From assembly GCF_048403405.1 (NCBI RefSeq), contig NZ_CP183129.1: a stretch of DNA of 64,000 nucleotides. One strand, 5' to 3'. The notes beneath the pieces are model-generated. The model was given only the letters and a program-made list of their open reading frames with translations, searched no databases and was not told where the DNA came from. Position numbers and translations under genes: made by a program. Shown piece after piece: positions 49,495 through 52,356 of this stretch (positions within the stretch are counted from its first letter, which is position 1; each line of letters begins with the position of its first letter). This DNA comes from Escherichia coli. GTDB taxonomy: Bacteria > Pseudomonadota > Gammaproteobacteria > Enterobacterales > Enterobacteriaceae.

Positions 49495-50439
49495 TTATTT
49501 CACCGTACCTAAAATTTCGATTTTCGCTGCTCTGGCTTTGACTTTACGTGACCAGATAGAGGTAAGAATTGGCACCAGAATCGAAGTCACAATGACCGCC
49601 GTCGCGACCAGCGAAGTTGCTGCCGGAGCCATCGGTTTAAACGCAGGCACCATTTCTGCAATCAGCACAGGTGTCGCTACCGCGGCCCCTGCGGAACTGG
49701 AAGCGGCAATTCCGGCAGTGCCATCGCCACCGCCAATCAATTTATCGGCGATAATCAACGGAATACCGGTCACGATAATTACTGCCACACCCAACAGGAT
49801 CCCCAGCAAACCTGTCTGGGCAATTACAGTCAAATCAATGGTATTGCCCAGCGCGAAGGCAAAGAATGGAATCAGCGTCTGCACCGCTTTGCTGAAAAAT
49901 TCTCGTAATTCAGGGTCAAGGTTCCCAAGGGCAAAGCCCACCAGGAACGGTAATACTGCGCCGACGAAAACATGCGGTTCAAACGAGGCAATCCCGGCAG
50001 TGCCCAGAATAATCATCGTCATGAGCGGCCCGGACTCCAATGACATCAACACAAATGCCCCAGCTTCTTCTTTTGTGCCGTACTGCTGCATGATGGAAGC
50101 GTAAAGTCCGCCGTTGGTCATATCCATCGCCGCCACCAGCGCCAGCGTTGAAAGTCCGGCAAAGAATCCAACTTCAACACCATGTTCCGGAATAATGCGC
50201 GAGGCAATTGCCGCAACCACCCACGCGACGGCAATTTTTGTTACCACCAGCGTACCGGATTTACGCAATACCGTTCCCGTCGCGCTTAATTGTATTGACG
50301 CCCCCATGCAAAAAAACCACACCGCCAGAATGGGCACCGTACCGGTAATCATCCCGTTGGTGAATGATCCAAAATATTTCCCCGCCTCCGGCGAGAAGGT
50401 GTGGCACAGTGCGCCAAGGAATAGCGGGACGAGCATCAT
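49495..50439 (-). CDS. kdgT: 2-keto-3-deoxygluconate permease; N-terminus here starts at MMLVPLF, with the expected upstream 13 codons in another frame
   Basis: 314 aa ORF; polytopic membrane protein; see finding on the C6/G3 homopolymer at 50436..50477. Confidence 0.85.
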
Positions 50440-50649
50440 CCCCCCGGGATTTTCTCAATCGAGCGTTTTATCTGCATTTCCATCACCTGTCGGCATATTT
50501 TTAAGGGCTGATGCGTAATTCCTCAATGGAGCATCAGTGTTGATGGAAACGAAGATAGACATTCATTTAATCAATAAAAGTGATCAAAACCACATCAATT
50601 GAAACACTGTTTTATTTTTATCGGATCATTGTTTTTATTTTGAAATTGA

Positions 50650-51360
50650 TCACAAATAAATATCCTCCGGCATAGCCGGAGGTTTTTCAAATGCGCCTAT
50701 AAGGCTCTCTTACCAGCCGCGCCCTAACAGGCGCACACGATCTGACATTTGCATCCAACTTCGTTACTTACGGCCCGTAAACGGGCTGCCCGGATAGGGA
50801 ATCGATAACTGCTCTCCCATTTTATCCTCTTCAAGCTGGTGCTTTATGTAATCCTGTATCTTCGCCGTGTTCTTACCCACCGTATCGACGTAGTACCCTC
50901 TGCACCAGAACTCCCTGTTCCTGTATTTGAATTTCAAATCACCAAACTGCTCGTAAAGCATCAGACTGCTTTTCCCTTTCAGATATCCCATAAAGCCGGA
51001 TACGCTCATTTTGGGCGGGATCTCCACAAGCATATGGATATGATCTGCACAGCATTCAGCTTCCAGAATCCGTACACTTTTCCACTCACACAGCTTTCTC
51101 AAAATACTGCCTATTGCTCTACGCTTCTCTCTGTAGAACACCTGTCTTCGGTATTTTGGCGCAAAAACTATGTGATATTTACAGTTCCATCGGGTGTGCG
51201 CTAAGCTCTTTTCGTTCCCCATTGGGACCCCCTTTTGATTTCTTGTTTGACACTTGCAGTTGCCAGACCGCAAGGTGTTTTAACAAATCAAAAGGGGTTT
51301 TAATAACTGGCTTAAAGCTGAAAGCTTTCCGGAACCCCCAGCCTAGCTGGGGGTTTTCTG
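50650..51360 (-). mobile_element. IS200-like element (IS200/IS605 family), approximate boundaries
   Basis: Contains IS200-type TnpA; characteristic perfect hairpins cctccggc-ata-gccggagg (50665..50683) and cccccagc-cta-gctggggg (51334..51353) near the ends. Confidence 0.75.
50764..51225 (-). CDS. tnpA: IS200 transposase TnpA (HuH Y1 family)
   Basis: MGNEKSLAHTRWNCKYHIVFAPKYRRQVFYREKRRAIGSILRKLCEWKSVRILEAECCADHIHMLVEIPPK... ; HxH motif; ~153 aa. Confidence 0.9.
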   Translation of the reverse strand, partial: PMGNEKSLAHTRWNCKYHIVFAPKYRRQVFYREKRRAIGSILRKLCEWKSVRILEAECCADHIHMLVEIPPKMSVSGFMGYLKGKSSLMLYEQFGDLKFKYRNREFWCRGYYVDTVGKNTAKIQDYIKHQLEEDKMGEQLSIPYPGSPFTGRK

Positions 51361-51451
51361 TGCACAACAAAAAAACCACCGCCGTTGGCGATGGTTCATT
51401 TTTTAAGCTGATATGCGGCGTAAACGCCTCATTGCAGCAGGCGGCAAATGA

Positions 51452-52072
51452 TTATTTTTTCGCCGCGAAACGTGCCGCTGCTTCGTCCCAGTTCACCACG
51501 TTCCAGAACTCTTTGATGTAGTCAGGACGGCGGTTCTGGAATTTCAGGTAGTAAGCATGTTCCCACACATCCAGGCCCAGAATCGGGAAGCCGGAAGCGC
51601 CAGAAATAGCTTCACCCATCAGCGGGGAGTCCTGGTTAGCAGTAGAAACCACCGCCAGTTTATCGCCTTTCAGCACCAGCCATGCCCAGCCGGAACCAAA
51701 GCGGGAAGCTGCCGCTTTTTCAAATTCTGCTTTGAAGTTATCAACGGAGCCGAAGTCACGTTCGATAGCCGCTTTCAGGTCACCCTGCAGGGTGGTGCCT
51801 TTTTTCAGACCTTTCCAGAACAGGCTGTGGTTAGCGTGACCGCCAGCGTTGTTGCGCAGTACGGTTTTCTTGTCTGCTGGCAGCTGGTCCAGTTTGGTGA
51901 TCAGCTCTTCAACCGGCAGGTTGGCAAATTCTGGCAGGCTTTCCAGCGCCGCGTTGGCGTTGTTGACGTAGGTCTGATGGTGTTTGGTGTGGTGGATTTC
52001 CATGGTCTGCTTATCGAAGTGCGGTTCCAGGGCATCGTAAGCATACGGCAGGGATGGCAGGGTATAACTCAT
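51452..52072 (-). CDS. sodA: manganese superoxide dismutase
   Basis: ORF 51452..52078 trimmed to ATG 52072 ([32 protein letters not shown]); 206 aa. Confidence 0.95.
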
Positions 52073-52356
52073 ATTCATCTCCAGTGTTGTCGGGCGGCCG
52101 ATTGTTAATGCCGCGTAAGCAGTTGGTTCATTATAGTTAATTAAATGATATTGAAAATGATTATCAATGCCGTACTTTTCGTAAGGGTATGGTTTTGCAG
52201 GAAAATGCCCGAGATGTGAAGCAAATCACCCACTTAATGCCGTGATTGCCAGTAAATCGACAACGGCGGCAACAGGCGAAAGGTTAATCGACAGCACGAT
52301 TTTTACACTCATCTCGTCGGAGATGTGACGCGACGAAAAATGATGAGGATAAGAAG

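What the first reader, a model, noticed from the sequence alone, without database searches (positions are those of the whole stretch)
50650..51360. IS200 copy inserted between kdgT and sodA
A complete IS200-type tnpA (HuH Y1 transposase) with the characteristic terminal hairpins lies about 200 bp upstream of kdgT and about 90 bp downstream of sodA. It is not at this position in K-12 as I remember it. IS200 carries a strong terminator hairpin and could insulate or alter kdgT expression.
Basis: partly seen in the sequence, partly recalled or inferred. Interest (0 to 1): 0.4.

Follow-up and report, generated by a model that had tools for sequence, protein, structure and literature searches.

The report
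IS200C inserted at the sodA terminator
This is an ordinary, intact copy of the small mobile element IS200C that recently landed just after the transcription stop signal of sodA; that stop-signal position is typical for this kind of element, and the copy probably has little effect on the neighbouring kdgT gene.

Summary
A complete IS200-group element, which RefSeq names IS200C, lies on the minus strand. Its 710-bp core is 50656-51365. The whole insert relative to the empty site is 715 bp (50654-51368). It sits 83 nt downstream of the sodA stop codon and 176 nt upstream of the kdgT ATG.

The element has the expected parts:
- a 152-aa Y1/HUH TnpA
- the left-end terminator hairpin
- the 5'UTR stem-loop (Rfam STnc490, 146 bits)
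- a right-end hairpin

It is absent from K-12. Only 6 of 5,426 complete E. coli genomes carry an IS at this site. Two sister genomes with identical flanks have the untouched empty site, so the insertion is recent. Differences in the junctions and in the IS alleles indicate at least three independent insertions here.

The position has an explanation. The left end abuts the T7 tract of the sodA intrinsic terminator, in the same orientation. The same arrangement was seen in all 11 other E. coli copies examined. Across many phyla, 83 of 120 left-end flanks passed a strict hairpin-plus-T-run test, against 1% of random sequence.

The predicted effect on kdgT is probably small. The kdgT regulatory sequences lie downstream of the junction and are intact. 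Separately, kdgT in this window has a 1-bp deletion (G7 to G6) that shifts the reading frame.

Verdict: a known element, low interest.

The parts
50656..51365 (-). IS200C core, 710 bp. This is the sequence shared with other copies.
   Evidence: It is 100% identical to the copies in L003, L006, L004 and L009, and differs by 1-7 SNPs from the other copies that could be compared. RefSeq annotates the copy at this site as 'IS200/IS605-like element IS200C'.
51366..51368 (-). Left-end junction nucleotides (GTT in the IS orientation). They are present in the window-type insertion and absent from the L004/L005-type insertion.
   Evidence: Comparison of occupied and empty sites shows a 715-bp insert here against a 711-bp insert in L004/L005. 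Whether these nucleotides belong to the IS, to a duplication, or to a carried donor flank is ambiguous.
50654..50655 (-). Right-end junction nucleotides (TT in the IS orientation). Their assignment to IS or target is ambiguous.
   Evidence: Tandem IS-IS junctions elsewhere read ATATTTAT-T-GTG.
50764..51222 (-). tnpA, a 152-aa Y1 HUH transposase (stop codon included in the coordinates).
   Evidence: NF033573 at 1.9e-43. Pfam Y1_Tnp at 4.4e-38. PDB matches 2ec2, 2f4f, 2a6m and 2xm3, with the alignment placing HUH at H61-I62-H63, Y125 and Q129.
51333..51355 (-). Left-end perfect hairpin (10-bp stem, 3-nt loop). In Salmonella IS200 this is described as a bidirectional Rho-independent terminator.
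   Evidence: Rfam STnc490 alignment positions 1-23. PMC4513863 describes IS200 nts 12-34 as a terminator.
51229..51297 (-). Stem-loop in the tnpA 5'UTR. In IS200 it sequesters the Shine-Dalgarno sequence, and the art200 antisense RNA is encoded opposite it.
   Evidence: Inverted repeat I1. DNA fold of -19.9 kcal/mol, z = -5.4. Rfam STnc490 match 51232-51355, 146 bits. Function taken from PMC4513863.
50664..50682 (-). Right-end subterminal hairpin (8-bp stem), followed by ATATTTAT. It scores as terminator-like on both strands.
51369..51397 (-). sodA intrinsic terminator: a hairpin (stem within 51373-51397 by the consensus scan) plus a T7 tract (51369-51375). This is the insertion target, and it is retained intact.
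   Evidence: Terminator scan. Fold. The empty sites read ...GGCGGTGGTTTTTTT|GTGATCAA.
51452..52078 (-). sodA (Mn superoxide dismutase), the upstream gene in the same orientation.
   Evidence: ORF list. RefSeq annotation of identical sequence.
49495..50477 (-). kdgT (2-keto-3-deoxygluconate transporter), the downstream gene. In this window it is frameshifted by a G7-to-G6 change at 50440-50445. The reading frame stops after 13 codons, and an overlapping ATGA gives a possible restart for the 314-aa ORF 49495-50439.
   Evidence: The eight other loci examined at this run or annotated there (L001-L006; L139/L140 annotated with a 984-nt kdgT) carry the intact 327-aa gene.
50639..50654 (-). CRP-like site TGTGA-TCAATT-TCAAA, directly at the right-end junction and preserved by the insertion.
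   Evidence: Read directly from the sequence. Assigning it to CRP is my inference from the consensus TGTGA-N6-TCACA.
50597..50617 (-). KdgR-like operator (AAATAAAACAGTGTTTCAATT on the minus strand), unchanged by the insertion.
   Evidence: Read directly from the sequence. Assigning it to KdgR is my inference from the published consensus, recalled from memory.

Best explanation
This is an intact IS200C, a minimal IS200-group insertion sequence. It has one gene for a Y1 HUH transposase, no terminal inverted repeats, and subterminal hairpins at both ends.

Shown:
- The element entered this lineage recently.
- It sits exactly at the 3' edge of the T-tract of the sodA intrinsic terminator.
- It is in the same orientation as sodA and kdgT.
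- The same placement recurs at other copies: a GC-rich hairpin, about 7 T-rich nucleotides, then the left end.

Inferred:
- The element moves as single-stranded DNA by the peel-and-paste route established for IS608.
- It selects the hairpin-plus-T-run of terminators as its target. That target resembles its own right end (hairpin plus ATATTTAT). The T-run could also pair with the A-rich nucleotides just 5' of the left-end hairpin.
- At this site the element is close to neutral. The sodA terminator keeps its hairpin and T7. The kdgT regulatory region is unchanged downstream of the junction. The IS carries terminator-like hairpins of its own at both ends, so kdgT stays insulated rather than being activated.
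For: Identity of the element: plus the RefSeq naming.

Mobility and recency:
- K-12 and most E. coli have the empty site GATCAC|AAAAAAACC.
- Only 6 of 5,426 genomes are occupied.
- TUM14771 and GN02461 match the window's flanks over about 2.9 kb apart from the window's own 1-bp kdgT deletion, yet have the pristine empty site.

Recurrent insertion at this site:
- The window type is a 715-bp insert.
- L004 is a 711-bp insert carrying the same IS allele, in flanks about 1.8% diverged from the window.
- L005 is a 711-bp insert carrying a 6-SNP IS allele that is identical to the topA-cysB copy in L014.

Placement at terminators:
- All 11 other E. coli copies fetched lie directly after a GC hairpin plus T-run. 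In most, a same-orientation gene ends just upstream (nagD, hrpA, uhpT, topA, carB, dgcZ, cspB).
- The empty carB and topA sites in K-12 retain the terminators.
- Among 120 distinct left-end flanks from a one-genome-per-species scan, 83 have a perfect GC hairpin plus T-tail, against 107 of 10,000 random 65-mers. The gap between stem end and left-end hairpin is tight, 17-21 nt.
- T6+ runs elsewhere in the same loci have such a hairpin in 5.4% of cases, against 75% for runs next to an IS.
- Tandem copies use the right-end hairpin of a resident copy as the target (L011, L124, L125, L127).

Insulation: terminator-like sites lie at the sodA terminator and at the right-end hairpin on both strands, and no sigma-70-like promoter was found in 50400-51500.

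Literature:
- The IS200 left-end hairpin is a bidirectional terminator, and the element is tightly repressed (PMC4513863).
Against: - Targeting and post-insertion selection cannot be separated using natural copies alone.
- The junctions are not uniform. The insert is 710, 711, 712 or 715 bp at four site types. The window type has a 5-nt TTTGT ambiguity that a clean insertion without duplication does not explain.
- About 30% of flanks fail the strict perfect-stem test. Most of these show imperfect hairpins by eye, but a few (such as L059) show none.
- The E. coli copies were picked from BLAST rankings, which may favour flanks similar to the query. The cross-species scan does not have this bias.
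- No expression data were available for kdgT.
- The CRP and KdgR assignments are inferences from consensus sequences.
Confidence: 0.85

Rival explanations
1. The insertion changes kdgT expression, either by blocking read-through from sodA or by displacing upstream promoter elements.
For: - The IS adds a 10-bp GC hairpin at its left end and a terminator-like hairpin at its right end between the two genes.
- The junction touches the first base of a CRP-like half-site and replaces its upstream flank: TTTT becomes ATTT.
Against: - A canonical sodA terminator (hairpin plus T7) already separated the genes, and it is intact.
- TGTGA-N6-TCAAA and the KdgR-like box are unchanged.
- No outward sigma-70-like promoter was found.
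- The insertion recurs in three genetic backgrounds at a type of site that IS200 uses everywhere. That points to target preference rather than selection on kdgT.
Confidence: 0.15
2. The association with terminators arises from selection after insertion, not from target choice. IS200 would insert more or less randomly in T-rich DNA. Only copies shielded from read-through and harmless to neighbouring genes, meaning those just after terminators, would persist.
For: - The preprint interprets upstream terminators as limiting transposase expression and favouring persistence.
- IS200 is strongly self-repressed.
- Intergenic sites after terminators are plausibly neutral.
Against: - The spacing is very narrow, 17-21 nt with a mode of 18.
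- The orientation is fixed.
- The same nucleotide position is used in independent events at sodA.
- Resident right-end hairpins are used as targets in tandem copies.
- The enrichment over ordinary T-runs is about 14-fold.
- Selection alone would allow a broad zone downstream of terminators.
Confidence: 0.25
3. The insertion is old in this lineage, and the two sister genomes lost it by precise excision.
For: - IS200/IS605 elements excise precisely in the IS608 paradigm (established knowledge).
- The empty sites in L139 and L140 are seamless.
Against: - 5,419 of the other complete genomes have the same seamless sequence, which makes it the ancestral state.
- The window-type junction carries 4-5 extra nucleotides. 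Precise excision of a 710/711-bp unit would leave these behind, and no such footprint is seen.
Confidence: 0.05

Closest known systems
IS200 of Salmonella enterica (founding member of the IS200 group; 707-710 bp)
   Same: - A single 152-aa Y1 TnpA.
- A left-end perfect hairpin that acts as a terminator.
- A 5'UTR stem-loop that hides the Shine-Dalgarno sequence, with the art200/STnc490 region. The Rfam match is full length and close to the consensus.
- A right-end hairpin and no terminal inverted repeats.
- Length 710 bp.
   Different: This is the E. coli variant that RefSeq names IS200C. I did not align it to a Salmonella copy, so the percent identity is not measured. The literature describes IS200 as essentially immobile, whereas this copy is polymorphic among near-identical genomes.
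IS1541 of Yersinia (IS200 group)
   Same: Elements whose left end begins TGTGCCCAGAAA followed by the identical 21-nt left-end hairpin were found in the cross-species scan. They also sit after a hairpin plus T-run, including in tandem arrays. The literature notes an IS1541 between pheL and pheA, which is where an attenuator terminator would lie (PMC3082878).
   Different: The first ~11 nt of the left end differ (CCC instead of CAC). I assigned those loci to IS1541 from memory of its sequence and did not test the assignment.
IS608 / ISDra2 (IS200/IS605 family; the peel-and-paste paradigm with solved TnpA structures)
   Same: - The TnpA fold and catalytic residues align: HUH, Y and Q.
- Both have subterminal hairpins.
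- Both insert with the left end 3' of a short conserved sequence. Here the left-end flank always ends in TT within a T-rich run.
   Different: - IS608 and ISDra2 carry tnpB and target a defined tetra- or pentanucleotide (TTAC, TTGAT), with no requirement for a hairpin in the target.
- Here the target appears to include a GC hairpin at a fixed distance.
- The junction lengths vary by 0-5 nt.
Group IIC (bacterial class C) introns
   Same: By my recollection of the literature, they insert just downstream of intrinsic-terminator stem-loops. It is the same genomic niche.
   Different: A completely different mechanism (a ribozyme and reverse transcriptase retroelement). This is an analogy of niche only, and I did not test it here.

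Membership tests
IS200/IS605 family, IS200 group | Encodes a Y1 HUH single-strand transposase (TnpA) with the HUH motif and the catalytic Tyr. | tested here: met
   NF033573 scores 147.7 bits against a cut-off of 55. Pfam Y1_Tnp matches at 4.4e-38. Alignment to IS608 TnpA (2a6m) places H61-I62-H63, Y125 and Q129.
IS200/IS605 family, IS200 group | tnpA only, with no tnpB or iscB. Total length about 0.7 kb. | tested here: met
   The core is 710 bp. The only ORF with a family match is tnpA.
IS200/IS605 family, IS200 group | No terminal inverted repeats. Subterminal hairpins at the left and right ends. | tested here: met
   Left-end hairpin at 51333-51355 and right-end hairpin at 50664-50682. The two ends are not inverted repeats of each other.
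IS200/IS605 family, IS200 group | IS200-type left end: a terminator hairpin followed by a 5'UTR stem-loop (the art200/STnc490 region). | tested here: met
   Rfam RF01405 matches full length, 146.1 bits against a gathering score of 56. Description in PMC4513863.
IS200/IS605 family, IS200 group | Insertion without target-site duplication. | tested here: inconclusive
   Inserts are 710 bp at carB (no duplication), 711 bp in L004/L005, 712 bp at topA (TT or TTG repeated), and 715 bp in the window (5-nt TTTGT ambiguity). All junctions fall in T-rich runs, where assignment is ambiguous.
IS200/IS605 family, IS200 group | The left end is always 3' of a conserved short target sequence. | tested here: met
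   All 15 E. coli left-end flanks read T-rich-N-TT immediately before (G/A)TGCACAG. The same pattern holds across subfamilies.
IS200/IS605 family, IS200 group | Mobility: occupied and empty alleles of the same site exist. | tested here: met
   6 occupied genomes against 5,419 with empty or other states. Sister genomes are empty. There are two junction types and two IS alleles.
IS200/IS605 family, IS200 group | Single-strand peel-and-paste transposition through a circular ssDNA intermediate. | not testable with these tools
   Inferred from homology to IS608 and ISDra2 TnpA. Tandem junctions reading ATATTTAT-T-GTG are compatible with a right-end-to-left-end joint.
Rho-independent (intrinsic) terminator, for the target downstream of sodA | A GC-rich hairpin followed directly by a T-tract, at the 3' end of a gene in the same orientation. 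| tested here: met
   The consensus scan found it at 51397-51373, followed by the T-tract. The fold agrees. It lies about 55 nt after the sodA stop codon. Termination activity itself was not tested.

The most novel reading that the evidence does not exclude
IS200-group transposases may actively recognise intrinsic terminators in single-stranded DNA (a GC hairpin with a T-run about 7 nt long) as mimics of the element's own right end. They would then insert at a fixed distance from the hairpin, and this would hold across bacterial phyla. If so, it would explain two things: how a 'dormant' element can accumulate tens of harmless, transcriptionally shielded copies, and why the same terminator, such as the one after sodA, is hit repeatedly. 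A 2025-26 preprint reports the statistical enrichment, but I found no statement of this as a targeting mechanism.
Probability: 0.4. Interest if true: 0.5.

Novelty: already known. Interest (0 to 1): 0.22.

Why it matters
For this locus, very little. It is a lineage-specific marker insertion of a well-known element. It could serve to subtype a small clade of human-derived E. coli isolates: four occupied and two empty among the near-identical complete genomes.

The wider pattern has more value. IS200-type elements sit at a fixed distance after terminator hairpins in Enterobacterales, Vibrio, Desulfovibrionaceae, Bacillota, Elusimicrobia and others. This matters for genome annotation, because it predicts where these elements will lie and where short-read assemblies will break. 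It also bears on the long-standing question of how IS200 can be multicopy, conserved and nearly silent. The question is directly testable with existing mini-IS200 assays.

Tried and rejected
- I tried to define one exact pair of IS termini that explains all junctions without duplication. Three candidate definitions (710, 711 and 712 bp) each fit some of the four site types and fail others by 1-4 nt. I left this as ambiguous.
- My first two hairpin detectors under-counted. They tested the T-tail only after maximal stem extension into the T-run. I replaced them with the version.
- I searched for older primary literature on IS200 and IS1541 target sites: PMC146608, PMC106867, PMC7190074 and the He et al. 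2015 review. None of these is held. I therefore cannot say whether terminator targeting was noted there.
- A scan for an outward-facing or kdgT promoter found no sigma-70 consensus match in 50400-51500. The kdgT promoter itself remains unlocated.
- I considered and rejected the idea that the upstream hairpin is part of the mobile unit. Its sequence differs at every copy, and it is present at the empty sites.
- I considered and rejected an assembly artefact. Four independent complete genomes carry the identical junctions.
- The weak Rfam hits (PsrR1, EAV_LTH, and STnc490 on the plus strand) are far below their gathering scores, and I take them as chance.

Full report
**What is there.** Window 50300-51800 contains a 152-aa ORF on the minus strand, starting at the ATG (50764-51222). 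Its flanking genes are kdgT (49495-50477, minus) and sodA (51452-52078, minus). Further out lie yiiM and rhaT.

The ORF is an IS200-type transposase:
- NCBIfam NF033573 transpos_IS200 scores 147.7 bits against a cut-off of 55.
- Pfam Y1_Tnp matches at 4.4e-38.
- It aligns to the solved TnpA structures of Sulfolobus, IS608 and ISDra2.
- In the IS608 alignment, the HUH motif is H61-I62-H63 and the catalytic Y-x-x-x-Q is Y125/Q129.

The non-coding parts match IS200 as well:
- Upstream of tnpA, Rfam STnc490 (the IS200 left end and 5'UTR) matches full length at 146 bits against a gathering score of 56.
- There is a perfect 10-bp hairpin at 51333-51355, a long 5'UTR stem-loop at 51229-51297, and a right-end hairpin at 50664-50682.
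- These correspond to features described for IS200: a left-end bidirectional terminator at nts 12-34 and an SD-sequestering stem-loop at nts 69-138 opposite the art200 sRNA (PMC4513863).

RefSeq names identical copies 'IS200/IS605-like element IS200C'.

**Boundaries.** I aligned the window to K-12 (L001), to a close empty-site strain (L002), and to occupied relatives.
- In the sodA-to-kdgT direction, the empty site reads ...GGCGGTGG-TTTTTTT-GTGATCAATTTC...
- The window reads ...GGCGGTGG-TTTTTTT-GTT-[GTGCACAG...GGAGGATATTTAT]-TT-GTGATCAATTTC...
- The bracketed core is 50656-51365, 710 bp, and is identical in several other copies.
- The total insert is 715 bp, with a 5-nt (TTTGT) ambiguity about where it lies.

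**Distribution.**
- IS200C-like sequence occurs in 3,093 of 5,426 complete E. coli genomes, with up to 35 places per genome.
- Only 6 genomes have an IS between sodA and kdgT. K-12 does not. The 'universal insertion' refutation therefore also fails.
- Four genomes share the window's junctions and have flanks matching the window apart from its own 1-bp kdgT deletion: strain 4621, MS 69-1, TUM1226 and OX030728. The junctions and flanks were inspected directly only for 4621 and MS 69-1 (L003, L006); for TUM1226 and OX030728 this rests on the BLAST rows.
- Two more genomes, TUM14771 and GN02461, match the window's flanks over about 2.9 kb apart from the same deletion, yet carry the pristine empty site. 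The insertion is therefore recent and polymorphic within one small lineage.
- The other two occupied genomes have flanks diverged by 1.6-2% and a different junction, a 711-bp insert that lacks GTT on the left and one T on the right.
- One of these (L004) carries the same IS allele as the window. The other (L005) carries a 6-SNP allele identical to a copy at topA-cysB in another strain.
- I read this as at least three independent insertions at the same terminator. The alternative, one event followed by gene conversion, is less simple.

**Why this position.** In the IS orientation, the left end lies directly after the sodA intrinsic terminator, meaning its hairpin plus T7.

Evidence from E. coli:
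- I fetched 11 other IS200C copies. Every one has its left end directly after a GC-rich hairpin plus T-run.
- In most, a gene in the same orientation ends a short distance upstream: nagD, hrpA, uhpT, topA, carB, dgcZ and cspB.
- One copy (L011) sits after the right-end hairpin of another IS200C.
- K-12 empty sites at carB-caiF and topA-cysB show that the terminators existed before the insertions.
- These copies were chosen from BLAST rankings, which could favour flanks similar to the query.

Evidence across species, free of that bias:
- I scanned one genome per species for the exact 21-nt left-end hairpin.
- It returned 120 distinct left-end flanks from Oxalobacter, Vibrio, Peptococcaceae, Elusimicrobia, Mailhella/Desulfovibrio, Bacillota, Saccharibacteria and Enterobacterales.
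- By a strict test (perfect stem of at least 5 bp with at least 4 GC pairs, loop of 3-9 nt, at least 5 T in the next 7 nt), 83 of 120 flanks qualify, against 107 of 10,000 random 65-mers from the same loci.
- The gap between stem end and left-end hairpin is 17-21 nt, with a mode of 18.
- Most flanks that fail the test show imperfect hairpins by eye.
- T6+ runs elsewhere in these loci have such a hairpin in 5.4% of cases, against 75% for runs next to an IS. The hairpin, and not only the T-run, therefore goes with the insertion site.

Prior report: a 2025-26 preprint describes an over-representation of terminator-like sequences immediately upstream of ISs, strongest for IS200/IS605, and interprets it as limiting transposase expression. 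The pattern is therefore at least partly described already.

**Mechanism (inferred).** The TnpA is homologous to the IS608 and ISDra2 enzymes, which act on single-stranded DNA, bind subterminal hairpins, and insert the left end 3' of a short target.
- The target here (GC hairpin, about 7 T-rich nt, then the junction) resembles the element's own right end (8-bp GC hairpin, ATATTTAT, then the end).
- The nucleotides just 5' of the left-end hairpin are A-rich in every subfamily (...GAAA|ACCCCC). In the IS608 scheme, that is where a guide pairing with a T-rich target would lie.
- The tandem copies, whose junction reads ATATTTAT-T-GTG..., fit use of a resident right end as a target.
- I rate active targeting as more likely than pure post-insertion selection, because of the narrow spacing, the fixed orientation and the repeated use of one position. 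Natural copies alone cannot settle this.
- The junctions are not uniform (inserts of 710, 711, 712 and 715 bp).
- The window-type junction has four or five nucleotides more than a clean insertion predicts. One possibility is carry-over of donor-flank nucleotides; the prophage copy L008 has the same TTTTGTT left-end flank. Slippage in the T-run is another.

**Consequence for kdgT (inferred).**
- The sodA terminator keeps its hairpin and T7.
- The IS has terminator-like hairpins at both ends on both strands, and no sigma-70-like promoter was found in the region.
- Downstream of the junction, the sequence is identical to the empty allele. It includes TGTGA-TCAATT-TCAAA (50654-50639), a CRP-like site whose first T is re-supplied at the junction, and a KdgR-like box at 50597-50617.
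- I therefore expect little or no change in kdgT regulation. It needs expression data to decide.

**A separate point about kdgT.** In this window the G7 run in codons 11-13 is G6 (50440-50445). The result is [13 protein letters not shown]-stop, with an ATGA overlap that could allow re-initiation of a 314-aa product. L001-L006 have G7, and L139/L140 are annotated with a full-length 984-nt kdgT. This is either a real, very recent frameshift or a homopolymer sequencing error. It matters more for kdgT function than the IS does.

**Verdict.** The element is a known IS (IS200C), and the identical insertion is already present and annotated in public genomes. The specific functional suggestion is not supported by the anatomy. 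The most interesting by-product is the precise and phylogenetically broad placement of IS200-type left ends after terminator hairpins. That pattern is partly reported and would be worth a systematic and experimental test.

Noticed in passing
window 50440-50445 (kdgT codons 11-13, minus strand): kdgT has a 1-bp deletion in a homopolymer (G7 to G6). This gives [13 protein letters not shown]-stop, with an ATGA stop/start overlap onto the remaining 314-aa frame. L001-L006 have G7, and the two empty-site sister genomes L139/L140 are annotated with a full-length 984-nt kdgT. It is either a real recent pseudogenisation or N-terminal truncation, or a homopolymer sequencing error.
   Followed up: partly
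L019-L138 (genome-contig scan): The exact 21-nt IS200 left-end hairpin is conserved across distant phyla, while the ~11 nt 5' of it differ by subfamily. In nearly all copies the left end lies at a fixed distance (stem end to left-end hairpin 17-21 nt) after a GC hairpin plus T-run. Many hits lie at the ends of MAG contigs, so these elements break assemblies.
   Followed up: partly
L011 (E. coli EC21Z-144, ycgX/ymgL region); L124, L125, L127: These are head-to-tail tandem IS200-type copies. The second copy's left end follows the first copy's right-end hairpin, and the junction reads ATATTTAT-T-GTG... (with one A-to-T change in L011). This suggests a true unit length of 711 bp and use of a resident right end as a target.
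   Followed up: partly
window 50639-50654 and 50597-50617 (minus strand): A CRP-like site (TGTGA-N6-TCAAA) begins at the last T of the sodA terminator T-tract, so the terminator and the putative kdgT activator site abut each other in all E. coli examined. A KdgR-like palindrome lies 37 nt further downstream. It shows SNPs between strains (ACACTG / ACGCTG / ACATCG).
   Followed up: no
L005 (strain 21F61) versus L014 (APEC17, topA-cysB): Two IS200C sequence variants circulate in E. coli. They differ at 6 positions, and the same variant is found at unrelated sites in unrelated strains. IS alleles could therefore be used to trace donor-recipient relations among copies.
   Followed up: no
L016 (EcST1193 MDBZ1340, mgtS-mgtT region) and L009 (strain 98224): In these genomes, small genes next to the IS200C right end are annotated as incomplete: mgtT 'missing C-terminus', and a hypothetical protein 'missing C-terminus'. 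Insertions after terminators are therefore not always harmless to compact neighbouring small ORFs.
   Followed up: no
PMC3082878: The literature notes IS1541 between pheL and pheA in Yersinia, which is where the pheA attenuator terminator would lie. This would be an instance of the same terminator targeting with a regulatory consequence.
   Followed up: no
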